Virus record (IMG/VR): IMGVR_UViG_2529292921_000020
Length of the DNA: 43,121 nucleotides
Direction: 5' to 3' (one strand)
Source: a virus
Taxonomy: Duplodnaviria; Heunggongvirae; Uroviricota; Caudoviricetes
The notes beneath the pieces were generated by a model. That model did no database searches. It worked only from the letters and a program-made list of their open reading frames with translations, and had not been told where the DNA came from. The translations under genes were made by a program, and so were the position numbers. Numbering within the stretch: the stretch's first letter is position 1; each line of letters opens with the position of its first letter. Below are positions 20,647 to 25,982 of this stretch, piece by piece.

Positions 20647-22500
20647 ATGGCATTTAAATACTATGATGTTGTCAGGGCGGCGTCGCCGTCAGACCTTGCG
20701 GAAAAGCTGACACATAAACTGAAAGAGGGCTGGCAGCCGTTTGGTAGTCCGGTGGCCATAACCCCTTATACCCTGATGCAGGCGATTGCAGCAGAAGGTG
20801 ATGTGGTCGTCAGTGGTGCAACTGAGCCGGACTGGTTCTACGTGGTTGTGCTTGCCGGACAGTCCAACGGCATGGCCTACGGTGAAGGGCTTCCGTTACC
20901 GGATTCTTACGATGCTCCGGATCCGCGCATTAAACAGCTGGCGCGCCGCAGCACGGTAACTCCGGGTGGAGAGAGTTGTACGTATAACGACATCATCCCG
21001 GCTGACCACTGTCTGCATGATGTGCAGGATATGAGTACGCTGAATCATCCGAAGGCAGACCTGAGCAAAGGGCAGTACGGCTGTGTCGGCCAGGGCTTAC
21101 ATATTGCCAAAAAACTGCTCCCGTATATCCCGAATAACGCGGGGATCCTGCTGGTACCATGCTGTCGTGGTGGTTCGGCATTCACCCAGGGCGCGGAGGG
21201 GACATTCAGTGCGGACGCGGGGGCCAGCCAGGATTCGGCGCGCTGGGGGGTGGGTAAACCGTTATATCAGGACCTGATTGCGCGCACTAAAGCTGCATTA
21301 CAGAAGAACCCGAAAAATGTGTTGCTGGCGGTGTGCTGGATGCAGGGAGAGTTTGACATGAGCGCCGCCACCTACGCACAGCAACCTGCGCTGTTTACAG
21401 CCATGCTGAAGCAGTTTCGTGCTGACCTCACTGTGTTTAACGCGCAGTGTCATGGTGGCAGTGCTGTAAATGTGCCGTGGATTTGTGGTGACACGACGTA
21501 TTACTGGAAAAATACATACGCTACCCAGTACGACACCGTGTACGGCGGGTATAAAAACAGGGAGAGTGAGGGCGTTTATTTTGTGCCCTTCATGACAGAC
21601 GGTAACGGCGTCAATACCGCCACTAACGCACCGGCAGAAGATCCGGATATTCCGGCATCAGGATATTACGGTGCGGCATCGAGAACGAATGGAAACCAGG
21701 TATCATCAAACCGCCCGACACATTTCAGTTCATGGGCGCGCAGGAGCATTATTCCGGATCGTATGGCAACCGCTATTCTGAACGCAGCCGGGCGCACCTC
21801 AGCTTTCATCAGTGGTAAGGCACCGGAAATCAAACCCTCGCCCGGCGGCAACACGCCATCGGGGCCGTCTGAAGATGCATCCGTACGCACAATCTCCCTG
21901 TTGCCGACAGCCGGAGAGGCTGCTGCGCAGGGCTGGACCATTAAGGACGGCGGAATTCAGTTGTCGGGTGGTGTATTTAAGATCGCCAAGCAGAGCAATA
22001 AAACCTGGTCCCTGATGCATCCGGTGGATGACGCAGTCTCCCTGCTGACACGGGGTGGCAGACTGAGCTGTAAGTTTCGACTGTCAGGCGCACTGACCAA
22101 CAACCAGTTCGGCCTGGGAATTTATCTGTATACCGATGTAGCGTTACCTGACGTCGTGGCGATGACCGGGACTGGTAACCCGTTCCTGATGTCGTTCTTC
22201 ACCCAGACCACAGACGGCAAACTGAATCTGATGCATCACAAGAAAGCAGGAAACACAAAGTTGGGCGAGTTCGGGAATTACAGTAATGACTGGCAGACGC
22301 TGGAACTGGTGTTCACCGCCGGCAGTGCCACGGTTACTCCGAAACTGAATGGAGTGGCTGGCCCGGCATTCCAGGTCATAAAAGACAGTCTGACACTGGG
22401 GCTGAATGCGCTGACGCTGACGGATATTACCAAAAATGCAGCGTATGGCGTTGAGATAGAAAGTCTGGTGCTGGAGATAAATGCACCGGCATCATCATAA
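20647..22500 (+). CDS. nanS: Phage NanS-p-like sialate O-acetylesterase (DUF1737 N-terminus plus SGNH-type hydrolase)
   Basis: 617-aa ORF; N-terminus MAFKYYDVVRAASPSDLAEKL..., esterase block VVLAGQSNGMAYGEG; sits downstream of the Q-tRNA region where Stx phages carry this gene after stxAB. Confidence 0.7.
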   Translation: MAFKYYDVVRAASPSDLAEKLTHKLKEGWQPFGSPVAITPYTLMQAIAAEGDVVVSGATEPDWFYVVVLAGQSNGMAYGEGLPLPDSYDAPDPRIKQLARRSTVTPGGESCTYNDIIPADHCLHDVQDMSTLNHPKADLSKGQYGCVGQGLHIAKKLLPYIPNNAGILLVPCCRGGSAFTQGAEGTFSADAGASQDSARWGVGKPLYQDLIARTKAALQKNPKNVLLAVCWMQGEFDMSAATYAQQPALFTAMLKQFRADLTVFNAQCHGGSAVNVPWICGDTTYYWKNTYATQYDTVYGGYKNRESEGVYFVPFMTDGNGVNTATNAPAEDPDIPASGYYGAASRTNGNQVSSNRPTHFSSWARRSIIPDRMATAILNAAGRTSAFISGKAPEIKPSPGGNTPSGPSEDASVRTISLLPTAGEAAAQGWTIKDGGIQLSGGVFKIAKQSNKTWSLMHPVDDAVSLLTRGGRLSCKFRLSGALTNNQFGLGIYLYTDVALPDVVAMTGTGNPFLMSFFTQTTDGKLNLMHHKKAGNTKLGEFGNYSNDWQTLELVFTAGSATVTPKLNGVAGPAFQVIKDSLTLGLNALTLTDITKNAAYGVEIESLVLEINAPASS

Positions 22501-22650
22501 AAAGTGAGCCAGCCAAATGGAAGGTATCGTTAAACTCACCGGTAGTGTCAGTGGGTCGTCTGAGATGCCTGCATGAGTTATCAGAGCCATCAGTACTTAA
22601 CTGGTGGCTTTTTTTATTGTTGTCAGCTTCCGGATAACGGGAGACGGGGT

Positions 22651-22866
22651 ATGGACCAGATGGAAAAAATCACAACAGGTGTGTCATACACCACGTCAGC
22701 GGTGGGAACGGGCTACTGGTTCCTGCAGTTGCTGGACAGGGTTTCCCCGTCTCAGTGGGCGGCAATAGGCGTGCTGGGGAGTCTGCTGTTTGGGCTGCTG
22801 ACATATCTGACTAACCTGTATTTCAAAATCAGAGAGGACCGTCGTAAGGCGGCACGGGGAGAGTAA
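22651..22866 (+). CDS. S: Pinholin (S21-like class II holin), possible dual start MDQM
   Basis: About 71 aa with two TM segments and charged C-terminus (...[22 protein letters not shown]); ORF-track N-terminal extension overlaps a terminator-like hairpin, so the start is placed at 22651 or 22660. Confidence 0.8.
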
Positions 22867-22870
22867 TTCA

Positions 22871-23221
22871 ATGACTCAAAACTATGAACTGATTGTGAAA
22901 GGGATCCGCAATTTTGAGAATAAAGTTACGGTAACTTTAGCGTTACGGGACAAAAAACGCTTTGACGGTGAAATTTTTGACCTGGACATCTCGCTGGACC
23001 GTGTTGAAGGTGCCGCGCTGGAGTTTTATGAGGCAGCAGCCAGAAGGAGCATCAGACAGGTCTTCCTGGATGTTGCTGCCGGGTTATGTGAAGGGGATGA
23101 GCAGTCGCCGGAAAAGCGCCCCGTAATTTTAGAGGCGCAGAATGTATGGATAACCTACAAAGGAAAGCTACCGGGAAGAATTACTGGTTCTCTGAAGACT
23201 CCTCCGGAATCACAACCTTAA
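22871..23221 (+). CDS. Hypothetical protein between holin and endolysin
   Basis: 116-aa ORF tightly packed after S. Confidence 0.4.
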   Translation: MTQNYELIVKGIRNFENKVTVTLALRDKKRFDGEIFDLDISLDRVEGAALEFYEAAARRSIRQVFLDVAAGLCEGDEQSPEKRPVILEAQNVWITYKGKLPGRITGSLKTPPESQP

Positions 23222-23284
23222 GTCACTGACCGGAACAGATAAACCTGTCCGTGGGCAGAAACCGATAAATCCTGATAAATATCC

Positions 23285-23818
23285 ATGAACGCAAAAATCA
23301 GATACGGCCTGTCGGCTGCCGTTCTGGCGCTGATTGCCGCTGGTGCGCCTGCGCCTGACATTCTCGACCAGTTTCTGGATGAAAAGGAAGGTAACCACAC
23401 CACGGCATACCGTGATGGCGCGGGTATCTGGACCATCTGCCGCGGTGCCATCCTGGTGGATGGCAAACCTGTCGTTCCGGGCATGAAGTTGTCGAAGGAA
23501 AAATGCGACCGGGTTAACGCCATTGAGCGTGATAAGGCGCTGGCATGGGTGGAGAAAAACATCAAAGTGCCATTGACCGAACCCCAGAAAGCGGGGATCG
23601 CGTCATTCTGTCCGTACAACATTGGTCCCGGTAAGTGTTTCCCGTCGACGTTTTACAGACGAATTAATGCAGGTGATCGCAGGGGAGCATGCGAAGCGAT
23701 TCGCTGGTGGATTAAGGACGGTGGCAGAGACTGCCGTATTCGCTCAAATAACTGTTACGGTCAGGTATTCCGTCGTGACCAGGAGAGCGCGCTGGCGTGC
23801 TGGGGAATCGACAGATAA
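23285..23818 (+). CDS. R: SAR-endolysin (phage lysozyme, R21-like)
   Basis: 177-aa ORF; N-terminal signal-anchor-release segment (LSAAVLALIAAGAPA) followed by lysozyme catalytic region (E...D...T context). Confidence 0.85.
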   Translation: MNAKIRYGLSAAVLALIAAGAPAPDILDQFLDEKEGNHTTAYRDGAGIWTICRGAILVDGKPVVPGMKLSKEKCDRVNAIERDKALAWVEKNIKVPLTEPQKAGIASFCPYNIGPGKCFPSTFYRRINAGDRRGACEAIRWWIKDGGRDCRIRSNNCYGQVFRRDQESALACWGIDR

Positions 23819-23910
23819 GCAGAATATTTTGCTGAAAAATGAGGTTGGCCAACGCGGGCGGATAACACGAAGTCCTGTGAACTGGCAAAACCTAAGTGAA
23901 TAAAAGTAAA

Positions 23911-23947
23911 AACCCCGTTTGTTGGCAGCAAGCGGGGTTTTGTTTTT
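23911..23947 (+). terminator. Terminator-like GC hairpin with T-run downstream of R
   Basis: AACCCCGTTTGTTGGCAGCAAGCGGGGTTTTGTTTTT. Confidence 0.5.
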
Positions 23948-24012
23948 ATGGCAGTAAGCTATGGGAGGCTGCCTTGATTGATTTTAGCAAACTGATTAGG
24001 GAGTTGCGACTC

Positions 24013-24459
24013 ATGATTAGTCAATTACCAAACTGGAAATTTTTGCTGGTCTGGAGCATCCCTTTTTTATGGGTAGTATCCCAGTTAATTGTGGCAATTA
24101 AGGGGTAGCTATGTCAGACAAACTCATAACGCCGGCAAAGGTCCTGTGTGTGATTGTCGGTATTTCATTTTCACTAATGCTGGTTGCTCTTTTTCTGTCC
24201 CTCGCCTGGGTGATGTTGTCTTCGTCGGGGCTGCTGGGGTGACAGTGACTGATGACATCAGCAGAGCGCTGGCTTTTGCTATTAAGTGGGTGGCTGTTGG
24301 TATTGCTGTGTCTCCGATGCTGTATGGGCTGGCAAAACTGGTCATTGCGCTGAAATCGTGAACTTTAAAAAGATGAGTGCTGAACTTATTCGGGCAATGG
24401 CATTTGCCATTCGTATTGTGGCCATTGCTGTTCTGGTCTGGGCAATCCGTTGGTGGTGA
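24013..24459 (+). other. Tandem array of four small hydrophobic peptide ORFs (24013-24108, 24111-24242, 24245-24361, 24373-24459; 31, 43, 38 and 28 aa)
   Basis: Back-to-back ORFs each encoding one predicted TM helix; ORF3 (TDDISRALAFAIKWVAVGIAV...) and ORF4 ([20 protein letters not shown]...) are clearly paralogous; ORF2 begins MSDKLI. Confidence 0.4.
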
Positions 24460-24460
24460 T

Positions 24461-24955
24461 ATGAACCGTGTTCTGTGTGTGGTGATTATTGTCATGCTGG
24501 TAGCCTGTGGTGTGCTTAGTCTGGGGCTGAATCATTACCGCGATAACGCCATCACCTACAAAGCGCAGCGCGATAAAAAAGTCAGTGAGCTGAAACTGGC
24601 GAATGCCACTATTACTGACATGCAGCAGCGCCAGCGAGATGTCGCTGCGCTTGATGCCAGATACACGAAGGAATTAGCCGATGCGAGAGCTGAAAATGAA
24701 ACTCTGCGCGCTGATGTTGCCGCTGGTCGTAAGCGCCTGCGGGTCAACGCCACCTGCCCCGGTACCGTGCGTGAAGCCACCGGCACCTCCAGCGTGGATA
24801 ATGCAACCGGCCCCCGACTGGCAGACACCGCTGAACGGGATTATTTCATCCTCAGAGAACGGTTGATGACAATGCAGAAGCAGCTGGAAGGGGCGCAGGA
24901 ATATATCCGCACTCAGTGCACTAAGCTGGCTTTTTATTATCCGGAGGATACATGA
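24461..24955 (+). CDS. Rz: Spanin inner-membrane subunit Rz
   Basis: About 165 aa from [19 protein letters not shown]-terminal TM then coiled-coil periplasmic domain; Rz1 is embedded in the +1 frame. Confidence 0.8.
24696..24866 (+). CDS. Rz1: Spanin outer-membrane lipoprotein subunit Rz1 (embedded in Rz)
   Basis: [15 protein letters not shown] lipobox followed by a Pro-rich mature peptide, entirely within the Rz coding region. Confidence 0.75.
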
Positions 24956-25176
24956 AGAAATTACGGGTAACCGTAGAACCTTGTCAGGGAACAATTCCGT
25001 TCCGTATTTTGCAGCGTGGTCGTGTTCTTGTTGAAGGTTCGTTCAGTGGTAAATGTACGCAATTACACTCCCGGACCTTTCAGGTGAATGCCACGAATGA
25101 AGAGCTAACCGTGGAGTGTACGATGAATGCCGCTAAATGCCGCATGGTATCCGCTGCATTACAGCCAGTGTGTTGA
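24952..25176 (+). CDS. Hypothetical small protein after Rz
   Basis: 74-aa ORF overlapping the Rz stop. Confidence 0.35.
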
Positions 25177-25374
25177 GCGACCTTATTATCCATGCGCGGT
25201 ATTGTCGCCGTATTCCTGCATTAACAGAGACCGCAGCCCGACAGGGAGACTCCTCTGCGCGAGTGTGCGGGGATAATCAAAAACGATACACACCGGGGTT
25301 TACCGCGTTAACGGAGCGCGGCGTTGTCCCCTCATAGTCGCCTGTCCGGTGCGATGGTGGAAGAAACCGAACGT

Positions 25375-25635
25375 TCATTTCTCGTTATTTGTCATGCTGG
25401 CCGGGCGCAGATGCGTTGCATCTGTTGCCAGCCTTCTCCTGCAGGCTTCAATAACCCACGCTGAAAAGTTACCGGACCCTTTATGCTCAAGGGCGATGTT
25501 GATCTGTTCAATTATGTGATTGGGGAAACGGATATTGCGGGTTGTGGTTCTGCGGGTCCGGTTTTTCGATGACATATTTATTTCCTTTACTGATTGCCAT
25601 ATGACGGGGATTTTACATGGCTGAGCTTCGTACAC
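25375..25635 (-). CDS. Ribbon-helix-helix (Arc/CopG-like) DNA-binding protein
   Basis: Probable start MSSKNRT (near 25575); NIRFPNHIIEQINIALEHKGSGNFSAWVIEACRRRL fits the beta-strand/helix/helix pattern. Confidence 0.5.
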   Translation of the reverse strand: MYEAQPCKIPVIWQSVKEINMSSKNRTRRTTTRNIRFPNHIIEQINIALEHKGSGNFSAWVIEACRRRLATDATHLRPASMTNNEK

Positions 25636-25982
25636 TCCAGAGCAGAATCAAAACACTGAATACCCGACGGGTGAATATTCTGAAGGGGGAGCAGCGTCGT
25701 GTCAGTGGCAGTGCACGTGTTTCCCTCAAGCGTCATATCTGGCTGAGGGACGCCGGGCAGTGCTGTATCTGTGGTCGTGTGGTTGACCTCTGTGACAGTG
25801 AACTCGATCACCGAATTGCACTTCAGTTCGGTGGTGGTAATGAGGAGACGAATCTTTGGACGCTCTGTGCCGAATGCCATCGACAAAAGTCTGCTCGTGA
25901 AGCGGCGAGTGGTATGCCGGACCCGACGCTGCCGGAGGTGTCCGGAGGTAGTGGCAGAGAGGACGACATCATCGGACTGTAA
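25617..25982 (+). CDS. HNH endonuclease (terminase-associated)
   Basis: 121-aa ORF; CxxC...HRIALQFGGGNEETNLWTLCAECHRQK; immediately upstream of the terminase genes. Confidence 0.8.
   Translation: MAELRTLQSRIKTLNTRRVNILKGEQRRVSGSARVSLKRHIWLRDAGQCCICGRVVDLCDSELDHRIALQFGGGNEETNLWTLCAECHRQKSAREAASGMPDPTLPEVSGGSGREDDIIGL

What the first reader, a model, noticed from the sequence alone, without database searches (positions are those of the whole stretch)
24013..24459. Array of four paralogous small hydrophobic peptide ORFs between endolysin and Rz
After a terminator-like hairpin downstream of R, four tightly packed ORFs (31, 43, 38, 28 aa) each encode a single predicted TM helix. ORF3 and ORF4 are clearly paralogous and ORF2 shares the N-terminal MSxxLI pattern. 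Lambdoid lysis cassettes normally run R straight into Rz. These could be lysis-timing regulators, type I toxin-like peptides, or a decaying duplicated gene.
Basis: seen in the sequence. Interest (0 to 1): 0.55.

Follow-up and report, generated by a model that had tools for sequence, protein, structure and literature searches.

The report
Small membrane peptide genes in lysis cassette
Between the cell-wall-degrading enzyme gene and the outer-membrane-disrupting gene of an E. coli prophage lie four real, conserved genes for tiny membrane-anchored peptides of untested function; relatives sit in the same slot in many phages, including Shiga-toxin phages, so they probably fine-tune host lysis.

Summary
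A strong terminator-like hairpin (23909-23941) follows the SAR endolysin gene R. Four chained small ORFs then run into Rz (24461), each with one hydrophobic helix.

Three corrections:
- ORF1 most likely starts at TTG 23974 (44 aa), not ATG 24013.
- ORF3 may start at GTG 24239, overlapping the ORF2 stop.
- The four are three families, not four paralogues. ORF3 and ORF4 are true paralogues. ORF1 shares only a C-terminal motif with them. ORF2 is unrelated.

All are hypothetical-protein families without Pfam or NCBIfam models. Each shows its lowest pN/pS in the proposed frame. An ORF2 homologue in O157 Sakai has published ribosome-profiling support.

No single longer gene underlies the region. ORF3 and ORF4 are short forms of 48-60 and 37-50 aa relatives.

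The families recur between endolysin and spanin genes in cassettes with different holins, endolysins and spanins. The first ORF is usually preceded by a similar hairpin and Shine-Dalgarno leader. A few members lie in tail-gene slots.

Best reading: late-expressed, tail-anchored inner-membrane accessory peptides of the lysis cassette, probably modulating lysis. This is untested. A moron or exclusion role is the main rival.

The parts
22651..22866 (+). Pinholin S (phage 21 type) with a dual start, M1 at 22651 and M4 at 22660. First gene of the lysis cassette; given as context.
   Evidence: PF04971 Phage_holin_2_1, E = 9e-33. The sequence begins MDQMEK.
22871..23221 (+). YdfR-family (DUF1327) gene inserted between the holin and the endolysin. 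Context.
   Evidence: PF07041, E = 7.5e-43. It occupies the same position as ydfR in K-12 Qin.
23285..23818 (+). SAR endolysin R, 177 aa.
   Evidence: PF00959, E = 9.3e-24. The N-terminus RYGLSAAVLALIAAGA resembles that of 933W R, which is used as a SAR endolysin in PMC9239132.
23909..23948 (+). Terminator-like hairpin AAAACCCCG...CGGGGTTTT plus T-run. In relatives a similar hairpin forms the 5' boundary of the small-ORF module.
   Evidence: 15-pair stem. Folding gives -25 kcal/mol, z = -4.97. A similar hairpin lies 33-64 nt upstream of the first small ORF in 15 of the 21 loci checked, across different cassette types. Two of the other six carry a different GC-rich stem with a T-run by eye. The consensus structure has 10 pairs, 3 of them with compensatory changes.
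23949..23973 (+). Leader of ORF1 with the Shine-Dalgarno site GGGAGG (23963-23968).
   Evidence: Duplex with the anti-SD of -10.2 kcal/mol, 5 nt from TTG 23974. Relatives carry a conserved leader ending in AAGGGAGAA before the start codon.
23974..24108 (+). It has an N-terminal amphipathic IDFSKLIRELR segment and a C-terminal transmembrane helix.
   Evidence: phrog_6632, E = 1.3e-12 for the longer form. Homologues of 44-45 aa occur in Citrobacter, Enterobacter, Klebsiella and Providencia, starting at the same position. pN/pS is 0.48 in frame against 0.76 and 1.95.
24111..24242 (+). ORF2, 43 aa. It has a short basic N-terminus, one transmembrane helix and an SSSGLLG tail. It is a separate family.
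   Evidence: phrog_4906, E = 4.5e-21. 205 clusters at 90% identity, mostly 43-49 aa. Present in 276 phage records including 933W. pN/pS is 0.40-0.48 in frame against 0.84-1.47. The Sakai homologue XECs191 has RIBOseq support (PMC5597208).
24239..24361 (+). ORF3, 40 aa from GTG 24239 (GTGA overlap with the ORF2 stop) or 38 aa from GTG 24245. It is the short form of the 48-60 aa 'KYKR...AFAIKW...ALKS' family.
   Evidence: phrog_1115, E = 3e-24. The family has 316 clusters. Core pN/pS is 0.18 against 1.31 and 3.5. In L174 the frame is closed upstream of the same GTG. PGAP calls a 51-aa version with a CTG start.
24373..24459 (+). ORF4, 28 aa. A paralogue of ORF3 with the short '[19 protein letters not shown]' C-terminus. 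Its stop lies 1 nt before the Rz ATG.
   Evidence: BLASTP against ORF3, E = 3e-5. phrog_4493, E = 3.8e-6. The same MSA(E/D)xIRA short form occurs in L009, L102 and L110. pN/pS is 0.23 against 0.85 and 1.9.
24461..24955 (+). Rz i-spanin, with the Rz1 o-spanin embedded at 24681-24866. This is the downstream end of the chained unit.
   Evidence: PF03245, E = 4.4e-51. The embedded 61-aa ORF carries the lipobox LVVSAC.

Best explanation
ORF1 to ORF4 are genuine genes for very small tail-anchored inner-membrane peptides. Each has a cytoplasmic N-terminus and a single C-terminal transmembrane helix. They belong to three sequence families: ORF1, ORF2, and ORF3 with ORF4.

Together they form a mosaic accessory module of the phage lysis cassette. 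Recombination, not local duplication, assembled it. Upstream it is bounded by a conserved terminator-like hairpin and a Shine-Dalgarno leader. Downstream it is chained cistron to cistron into Rz.

Inferred mechanism:
- The module is transcribed only as part of the Q-antiterminated late transcript, which reads through the hairpin.
- It is translated by coupling along the chain.
- The peptides insert into the inner membrane, where they modulate lysis through helix-helix contacts. The Ala-rich A-x-A-F-A-I-[KR] face is the candidate contact surface.
- The target could be pinholin triggering, SAR-endolysin release or spanin action.
- The module is dispensable and tunes lysis; it is not a core component.

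Shown here: the anatomy, the family membership, purifying selection, the recurrent endolysin-spanin position and the conserved hairpin. Inferred: the timing of expression, the membrane topology and any effect on lysis.

The confidence of 0.5 is for the whole statement including the lysis role. That the ORFs are real genes for conserved membrane peptides I put at about 0.85.
For: - Reality of the genes. All four match PHROG families. Homologue lengths are consistent across 316, 205 and 16 clusters. pN/pS is lowest in the proposed frame for all four. Start positions are conserved as ATG, GTG or TTG. RIBOseq supports the ORF2 homologue XECs191 in O157 Sakai (PMC5597208).
- Membrane character. Hydropathy supports one hydrophobic helix each. 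AlphaFold of the ORF3/4 family gives a short N-terminal helix and a 38-residue helix with pLDDT 86-88.
- Lysis context, ORF3/4 family. It lies between a lysozyme and Rz in Salmonella (L089). It lies between a transglycosylase-type endolysin and a phrog_214 spanin with a lambda-S-type holin (L092). It lies after an M15 peptidase (L086) and after a GH108 endolysin (L190).
- Lysis context, other families. ORF1 family lies between a GH19 endolysin and an i-/o-spanin pair (L098). ORF2 family lies after GH108 endolysins in Cronobacter and Citrobacter. Both the ORF3/4 and ORF1 families flank a holin and a SAR endolysin in L186.
- Chaining. Spacers are 1-11 nt and there is a GTGA overlap.
- Expression with late genes. 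There is no + strand promoter-like site in 23800-24500.
- Dispensability. Closely related S, R and Rz cassettes lack the module.
- Module boundary. The hairpin plus leader is conserved across cassette types.
Against: - No experiment links any of these peptides to lysis. No paper describing them functionally was found.
- There is no similarity to any known holin, antiholin, releasin or spanin family.
- The R-Rz slot also hosts a non-lysis gene, ant, in 933W-like phages. Position alone is therefore weak evidence.
- Some family members sit outside lysis cassettes: after tail-fibre genes (L187, L095) or between tail genes (L100).
- Partner holins, endolysins and spanins all vary, so no specific target can be named.
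- The RIBOseq signal for XECs191 came from uninduced cultures. That fits spontaneous induction, but it also fits expression in lysogens.
- The pN/pS figures are pooled over non-independent pairs of few sequences.
Confidence: 0.5

Rival explanations
1. The ORFs are moron-type cargo. The peptides would be small membrane proteins that benefit the lysogen or the phage in a way unrelated to lysis. An example is superinfection exclusion at the inner membrane, as with HK97 gp15. On this view the R-Rz junction is simply a permissive insertion slot in the late operon.
For: - The same slot carries ant in 933W and Ss-VASD.
- Family members occur in other late-operon slots near tail genes.
- Copy number varies widely, from 0 to 4, and allelic shuffling is extensive. 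This is typical of accessory cargo.
- The XECs191 RIBOseq signal was obtained without induction.
- The module has its own conserved boundary element.
Against: - No promoter-like site lies upstream on the + strand.
- The terminator-like hairpin lies upstream of the ORFs, not downstream, so it would block read-in during lysogeny.
- The ORFs are chained into Rz.
- Most members, and members of all three families, sit inside lysis cassettes of unrelated composition.
- There is no PADLOC match.
Confidence: 0.25
2. The ORFs are non-functional or merely structural. They would be remnants of recombination, with ORF3 and ORF4 as truncated genes. Alternatively, translated spacers whose only role is to carry ribosomes from the hairpin to Rz, with the peptide sequences irrelevant.
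For: - ORF3 and ORF4 lack the N-terminal 'KYKRxxLRLxMKNG' part found in relatives.
- ORF3 is frameshifted and ORF4 is absent in phiSTEC1589 (L085). ORF1 has an internal stop in L006.
- ORF4 has no Shine-Dalgarno site.
- The last codons of ORF4 (TGG TGG TGA) form the Rz Shine-Dalgarno-like sequence.
- R and Rz are translationally overlapped where the insert is absent.
Against: - Amino-acid sequences are under purifying selection (pN/pS 0.18-0.48 in frame).
- The short MSA(E/D)xIRA form of ORF4 recurs with both C-terminal types in independent loci.
- The 'RWW' C-terminus is kept in loci where no Rz follows (L185, L186).
- The four-ORF block is kept intact in 587 complete genomes.
Confidence: 0.12
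3. The ORFs are type I toxin-like peptides: membrane-depolarising toxins controlled by an antisense RNA.
For: They are small hydrophobic single-helix peptides. One minus-strand promoter-like site lies at 24117-24088.
Against: - Promoter-like sites are no more frequent than in shuffled sequence (2 found, 2.9 expected).
- There is no Rfam family.
- There is no promoter of their own.
- The four cistrons are chained into Rz in the sense orientation within a late operon.
- There are no matches to toxin families in Pfam or NCBIfam.
Confidence: 0.04
4. The region is one longer gene broken by frameshifts. The candidate is the 90-aa ORF at 24089-24361, or an ORF2-ORF3 fusion.
For: phrog_3246 (90 aa) matches the long ORF over its full length. 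Proteins of 83 aa that fuse ORF2 and ORF3 are called in some assemblies.
Against: - The N-terminal part of the 90-aa frame shows pN/pS of 1.24-1.47. ORF2 is the selected frame there.
- The fusion proteins have different junction points at homopolymer runs, as sequencing errors would give.
- In relatives ORF2 and the ORF3 family occur separately and in the opposite order.
Confidence: 0.02

Closest known systems
Phage P2 LysA (membrane protein encoded between endolysin K and the spanin genes lysB/lysC; my own knowledge, Ziermann et al. 1994)
   Same: It is a non-essential membrane protein encoded between the endolysin and spanin genes, and it is thought to influence lysis timing.
   Different: LysA is about 140 aa with several transmembrane helices. 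No sequence relationship was detected. The peptides here are 28-60 aa with one helix, and they occur as a variable array.
Mu gp25 'releasin' (DUF2730; PMC9239132)
   Same: It is a small single-pass inner-membrane accessory protein of a lysis cassette with a SAR endolysin. It acts without being a holin.
   Different: gp25 is 99 aa, with N-out/C-in topology and a 73-aa cytoplasmic domain. It maps downstream of the spanins. The ORFs here give no Pfam DUF2730 match, and their families also accompany other endolysin types (M15, GH19, GH108).
Antiholins (lambda S107, phage 21 S71, T4 RI, P1 LydB; my own knowledge)
   Same: They are small membrane-associated regulators that set the time of holin triggering.
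   Different: S107 and S71 are alternative translation products of the holin gene itself. RI and LydB are not tail-anchored peptides. No homology was found. The window already has the S71/S68 dual start.
HK97 gp15 and other moron-encoded small inner-membrane exclusion proteins (my own knowledge, Cumby et al. 2012)
   Same: They are small inner-membrane proteins carried as accessory inserts in the late operon of lambdoid phages.
   Different: Morons have their own promoter and a downstream terminator, and they are expressed in lysogens. Here no promoter is seen and the hairpin lies upstream.
XECs191 of E. coli O157:H7 Sakai (PMC5597208)
   Same: It is a direct homologue of ORF2, with the 933W-type sequence. 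It was reported as a translated intergenic small gene predicted to lie in the inner membrane.
   Different: It was reported only as one entry in a genome-wide list. Its position in the lysis cassette, its family and its neighbours were not discussed.
Type I toxins (Hok, TisB, Ibs, Ldr; my own knowledge)
   Same: Similar size and hydrophobic single-helix character.
   Different: There is no antisense RNA, no promoter of their own and no family match. The ORFs are polycistronic with Rz.

Membership tests
PHROG families of unknown function (phrog_6632, phrog_4906, phrog_1115/3246/4493) | Significant profile match over most of the protein | tested here: met
   ORF1 long form 1.3e-12; ORF2 4.5e-21; ORF3 3e-24; ORF4 3.8e-6.
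ORF3/ORF4 'AFAI[KR]' tail-anchored peptide family (defined here) | The motif A-x-A-F-A-I-[KR] at the start of a single long C-terminal helix, ending in ALKS or (R/K)WW | tested here: met
   Alignments A3 and A7. ORF3 and ORF4 both carry the motif. HMM searches recover 316 clusters and 32 representatives at 50% identity.
ORF3/ORF4 'AFAI[KR]' tail-anchored peptide family (defined here) | The N-terminal basic segment M-x-KYKRxxLRLxMKNGxE of the long form | tested here: not met
   The window's ORF3 and ORF4 lack it. They are short forms starting at VTDD and MSAE.
Holin | Match to a holin family, and a charged cytoplasmic C-terminal tail after the last transmembrane helix | tested here: not met
   None of the four ORFs matches a Pfam or NCBIfam holin model. 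Their C-termini are KG, LLG, KS and RWW, with no charged tail. The cassette already has an S21-type pinholin.
Holin | Lethal hole formation or membrane depolarisation on expression | not testable with these tools
   Needs expression experiments.
Spanin (i-spanin, o-spanin or u-spanin) | An N-terminal transmembrane helix with a long periplasmic coiled-coil domain, or a lipobox lipoprotein | tested here: not met
   The peptides have at most about 15 residues beyond the helix and no lipobox. Rz and Rz1 are present separately.
Releasin (DUF2730) | A PF10805 match with N-out/C-in topology and a cytoplasmic C-terminal domain | tested here: not met
   No Pfam match at E <= 1. The helix is C-terminal, not N-terminal.
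Type I toxin-antitoxin | A small hydrophobic toxin peptide | tested here: met
   28-44 aa with one hydrophobic helix each.
Type I toxin-antitoxin | A promoter of its own and an overlapping or adjacent antisense RNA | tested here: not met
   No + strand promoter-like site in 23800-24500. One minus-strand site, within chance expectation. No Rfam match.
Moron (Juhala et al. 2000 sense) | An accessory ORF flanked by its own promoter upstream and a terminator downstream | tested here: not met
   The hairpin is upstream and no promoter-like site was found. The ORFs run straight into Rz.
Moron (Juhala et al. 2000 sense) | Present or absent between otherwise similar phages, and found in several late-operon slots | tested here: met
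   The insert is absent in Qin, DLP12 and the related cassettes where Rz was found. The slot content is variable. Some members lie near tail genes.
Anti-phage defence proteins (PADLOC) | A match to a defence-system model | tested here: not met
   No match at E <= 1 for any peptide or long-form relative.

The most novel reading that the evidence does not exclude
The four ORFs represent an unrecognised class of phage lysis-cassette microproteins. The class would consist of hairpin-delimited, recombination-shuffled cassettes of tail-anchored peptides, several ending in the motif L-I-x-A-I-R-W-W. These would act in the inner membrane to tune the late steps of lysis: pinholin triggering, SAR-endolysin release or spanin activation. 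The class would span enterobacterial temperate phages, including the 933W-like Shiga-toxin phages, where an ORF2 homologue lies upstream of Rz and is unannotated in the 933W record.
Probability: 0.3. Interest if true: 0.7.

Novelty: new member of a known kind. Interest (0 to 1): 0.45.

Why it matters
Lysis timing sets burst size. In Shiga-toxin phages it also sets when and how much toxin is released. The three-step lysis model (holin, endolysin, spanin) has no place for these peptides.

Their distribution is wide:
- An ORF2 homologue is found in 276 phage records, nearly all Stx-converting or related Escherichia/Shigella phages. It is unannotated in the 933W record.
- Some part of the query, which includes the 3' flank of R and the hairpin, is found in 2066 of 5426 complete E. 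coli genomes.
- The full four-ORF array is found in 587 of them, including O25b:H4 isolates.

If the peptides modulate lysis, they would be a new and easily tested layer of control. If they act in the lysogen, they would be a new set of prophage-encoded membrane microproteins. Either way, the work gives corrected gene models and defines three microprotein families with a shared upstream hairpin. That makes them tractable for deletion and co-expression experiments.

Tried and rejected
- Pfam, NCBIfam and PADLOC scans of all peptides and long-form relatives gave nothing.
- An Rfam scan of 22400-25700 at E <= 1 gave nothing.
- Literature searches by phrase, by concept and by peptide strings found no functional description. 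The Enterobacteriaceae microproteome preprint does not mention lysis or prophage.
- DNA repeat search: ORF3 and ORF4 share no DNA repeat, so recent tandem duplication is rejected.
- The 90-aa ORF (24089-24361) and the PGAP 51-aa CTG-start model for ORF3 were rejected on frame-specific selection and the lack of a Shine-Dalgarno site.
- The minus-strand 123-aa ORF at 24124-24495 was set aside as the antisense of the hydrophobic ORFs. Selection supports the + strand frames.
- ORF2-ORF3 fusion proteins of 83 aa in some assemblies have varying junctions at homopolymers and were treated as assembly errors. A programmed -1 frameshift was considered, but there is no canonical slippery heptamer.
- The idea that the C-terminal 'RWW' exists only because TGGTGGTGA serves as the Rz ribosome-binding site was rejected as the sole cause. 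The motif is kept where no Rz follows.
- Microdiversity within the four-ORF arrangement was too low to test selection: 3 synonymous and 1 non-synonymous change in four loci.
- The IMG/VR scan returned mostly near-identical E. coli loci and added little diversity.
- A fold search of the AlphaFold model was not run. A model of two helices would give meaningless matches.
Full report
**What is in the window.** The window is an E. coli lambdoid prophage. The 661 bases 23820-24480 are 100% identical to prophages in O25b:H4 and other strains. Some part of that stretch is found in 2066 of 5426 complete E. coli genomes, and 587 genomes carry at least 80% of it in one place.

The lysis cassette reads as follows:
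- S21-type pinholin with a dual start (22651/22660-22866, PF04971).
- A YdfR/DUF1327 gene (22871-23221).
- SAR lysozyme R (23285-23818, PF00959).
- A 155-nt non-coding stretch.
- Four small ORFs.
- Rz (24461-24955, PF03245) with Rz1 embedded (24681-24866).

**Check of the observation.** The hairpin is real and strong. It spans 23909-23941 with 15 pairs and a T-run. It folds at -25 kcal/mol with z = -4.97.

The four ORFs sit at 24013-24108, 24111-24242, 24245-24361 and 24373-24459. Each has one hydrophobic stretch. Spacers are 2, 2, 11 and 1 nt, so the ORFs and Rz form a chain.

Two gene models need correction:
- ORF1 most likely begins at TTG 23974 (44 aa). A GGGAGG site lies 5 nt upstream (-10.2 kcal/mol). 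Homologues in Citrobacter, Enterobacter, Klebsiella and Providencia are 44-45 aa, begin (M/V)IDFSKLIRELR, and start at the same position.
- ORF3 can begin at GTG 24239, giving the classic GTGA overlap with the ORF2 stop. In relative L174 the frame is closed just upstream of this codon. The PGAP model, 51 aa from a CTG, has no ribosome-binding site.

**Are they genes?** All four match PHROG families of unknown function. None matches Pfam, NCBIfam or PADLOC. Sources name them only 'hypothetical', 'membrane' or 'prophage' protein, apart from two records that mislabel them 'Rz'.

Family sizes in the large protein collection are 316 clusters for ORF3/4, 205 for ORF2 and 16 for ORF1, with tightly clustered lengths.

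Pooled Nei-Gojobori pN/pS was computed in the proposed frame and in the two shifted frames:

| ORF | In frame | Shifted frames |
|---|---|---|
| ORF1 | 0.48 | 0.76, 1.95 |
| ORF2 | 0.40-0.48 | 0.84-0.86, 1.24-1.47 |
| ORF3 core | 0.18 | 1.31, 3.5 |
| ORF4 core | 0.23 | 0.85, 1.9 |
| N-terminal 22 residues of the long form | 0.40 | 0.98, 2.0 |

These figures are pooled over non-independent pairs of few sequences. They indicate the selected frame and are not precise estimates.

The 90-aa ORF at 24089-24361 is not selected in its N-terminal half, where ORF2 is the selected frame.

Direct evidence of translation exists for one homologue. Hücker et al. 2017 list XECs191 (O157:H7 Sakai 1945984-1946130; MMGWLMISDKLITLVKSLCVLVGISFLVMLVAIFFSTAWRVLTLSGLVG) among RIBOseq-supported novel genes. 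In LB its RNA RPKM was 30.0, its ribosome RPKM 12.6 and its coverage 0.55. It was predicted to lie in the inner membrane (PMC5597208). This is the 933W-type ORF2.

**How the four relate to each other.**
- ORF3 and ORF4 are paralogues (BLASTP E = 3e-5). Both fall in one HMM family whose core is A-x-A-F-A-I-[KR].
- They share no DNA repeat, so they were brought together by recombination, not recent duplication.
- In relatives the family is longer. The ALKS type is 48 or 60 aa (M-x-KYKRILLRLTMKNGLELKAPVTDDISRA...). The RWW type in O157 is 37 or 50 aa. The long-form start is kept as ATG or GTG across E. coli, Salmonella and Citrobacter.
- The window's ORF3 and ORF4 are therefore short forms. The MSA(E/D)xIRA short N-terminus of ORF4 recurs with both C-terminal types in other loci, so it is a stable variant.
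- ORF2 is unrelated to the others.
- ORF1 shares only the C-terminal motif L-I-x-A-I-(R/K)-(WW/G/S) with the ORF3/4 family (hhalign probability 25-64%).
- AlphaFold of the ORF3/4 family gives a short N-terminal helix and one 38-residue helix (mean pLDDT 74).

**The slot and its variability.** K-12 Qin and DLP12 run R straight into Rz. So do the R homologues from species-representative genomes where an Rz of the window's type was detected.

In E. coli and its phages the slot is a mosaic. Arrangements seen include:
- ORF2 alone.
- Long form plus ORF2. This was the commonest arrangement, 69 of the 80 best IMG/VR loci.
- A single RWW-type gene (O157).
- ant plus an ORF2-like gene (933W, Ss-VASD, P8983).
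- Long form, ORF2, ORF3, ORF4 (L174).
- Other small transmembrane ORFs (L009, L110).

ORF2 homologues occur in 276 phage records, nearly all Stx-converting or related Escherichia/Shigella phages. The one in the 933W record is unannotated.

Decay is also seen. ORF3 is frameshifted and ORF4 is missing in phiSTEC1589, and ORF1 has an internal stop in L006.

Within the four-ORF arrangement the block 23974-24459 is almost invariant, while the 3' flank of R varies. I found 3 synonymous and 1 non-synonymous change in four loci.

**Context outside E. coli.** This is the strongest argument for a lysis link.

| Family | Locus | Context |
|---|---|---|
| ORF3/4 | Salmonella L089 | Between a lysozyme and Rz |
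| ORF3/4 | L092 | Between a transglycosylase-type endolysin and a phrog_214 spanin, behind a lambda-S-type holin |
| ORF3/4 | L086 | After an M15 peptidase |
| ORF3/4 | Citrobacter L190 | After a GH108 endolysin |
| ORF1 | Enterobacter L098 | Between a GH19 endolysin and an i-/o-spanin pair |
| ORF2 | Cronobacter, Citrobacter | Follows GH108 endolysins |

In metagenomic locus L186, members of the ORF3/4 and ORF1 families flank a holin-like gene and precede a SAR endolysin.

There are exceptions. Members lie after tail-fibre genes (L187, L095) and between tail genes (L100).

**A conserved boundary element.** In 15 of the 21 loci checked, the first small ORF is preceded at 33-64 nt by a hairpin AAAA-CCCCG...CGGGG-TTTT. 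Most of these also carry a conserved leader ending in AAGGGAGAA before the start codon. Two of the other six carry a different GC-rich stem with a T-run by eye.

This holds with different endolysins and even in non-lysis slots. The outer stem is conserved, and inner pairs change in a compensatory way: 10 consensus pairs, 3 with double changes.

The unit that moves therefore looks like hairpin, leader and small ORF(s). No + strand promoter-like site lies between the hairpin and Rz. No Rfam family matches.

**Interpretation.** The shown facts fit late-expressed, tail-anchored inner-membrane accessory peptides of the lysis cassette.
- The upstream hairpin would block read-in unless RNA polymerase is Q-modified.
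- The chain of short spacers and overlaps would couple translation down to Rz.
- The Ala-rich helix face suggests helix-helix binding to a membrane partner.

Which partner is unknown, because holin, endolysin and spanin types all vary among loci.

The main rival is accessory cargo unrelated to lysis, for example exclusion at the inner membrane. It is supported by ant occupying the same slot, by the tail-region members and by the mosaicism. The position of the hairpin, the lack of a promoter and the dominance of lysis contexts weaken it.

Remnant, spacer, type I toxin and broken-long-gene readings are less likely, for the reasons given under rival explanations.

**Novelty.** The genes are already in databases as hypothetical proteins and PHROGs. 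One homologue is in a published list of translated small ORFs. No function, family description or link to the lysis cassette was found in the searchable literature.

I rate the finding a new member of a known kind, namely small phage membrane accessory proteins, and of moderate interest. It would rise if a lysis phenotype were shown, especially for Stx phages.

Noticed in passing
window 23909-23973; also L089 2913-3000, L190 2235-2295, L098 2439-2500, L092 1062-1149, L008 1294-1381, L187, L186, L185: A hairpin AAAA-CCCCG...CGGGG-TTTT lies 33-64 nt upstream of the first small transmembrane ORF in loci with unrelated endolysins and even in non-lysis slots. Most of these loci also share a conserved leader with a Shine-Dalgarno site. 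Its role is unexplained: terminator read through by Q, RNA stabiliser or recombination linker.
   Followed up: partly
L188 and L189, 1-859 (Cronobacter prophage): Genes for an LT-II-like enterotoxin (PF01375 Enterotoxin_a plus PF06453 LT-IIB) lie immediately upstream of the holin genes. This is the position stx occupies in Stx phages.
   Followed up: no
L086 1349-1531, L110 3452-3727, L189 and L190 2640-2822: A 60-aa predicted lipoprotein (MxRKHWTHR...LLVGC..., phrog_7528, unknown function) takes the place of Rz directly downstream of the small ORFs, in cassettes where no Rz-like gene was recognised. It may be an alternative outer-membrane step of lysis.
   Followed up: partly
L186 2501-3685 (metagenome contig): Directly after capsid gene E comes an array of small genes: an ORF3/4-family peptide, a second similar one, a holin-like 59-aa protein, a 51-aa transmembrane peptide and a 32-aa ORF1-like peptide ending in AVRWW. 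A SAR endolysin follows. This is a lysis cassette rich in these peptides but in a different gene order.
   Followed up: partly
window 24180-24245 (ORF2/ORF3 junction); proteins P0092, P0101, P0104-P0106: Several assemblies encode 83-aa ORF2-ORF3 fusion proteins with different junction points at the T5 and C3 runs. These are probably homopolymer sequencing errors. A natural frameshift was not excluded.
   Followed up: partly
window 24952-25176: A 74-aa ORF overlaps the Rz stop (ATGA). It matches phrog_2571 (unknown function) and is annotated as hypothetical by PGAP. It is another uncharacterised gene chained to the lysis cassette.
   Followed up: no
L009 1014-1166 and 1330-1479; L110 3218-3367: Further unrelated small transmembrane ORFs of 49-50 aa (for example MIKAETT...AWIICTALVAYTTIYLNR) occupy the same R-Rz slot. 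Hybrid proteins such as P0107 join their N-terminus to the AFAIKW helix.
   Followed up: no
window 23820-23900: The 3' flank of R is much more variable between otherwise near-identical prophages (9-11 substitutions in about 75 nt) than the small-ORF block that follows (0-3 substitutions in 486 nt).
   Followed up: partly
L089, L092 and L008, leader between the hairpin and the long-form start: In these loci the leader carries a 26-nt insert. It creates an 8-codon mini-ORF (for example ATG TGT AGG GAG GTG TAT TCC CTG TGA) whose stop overlaps the GTG start of the long-form gene, and it adds a second GGGAGG site.
   Followed up: no
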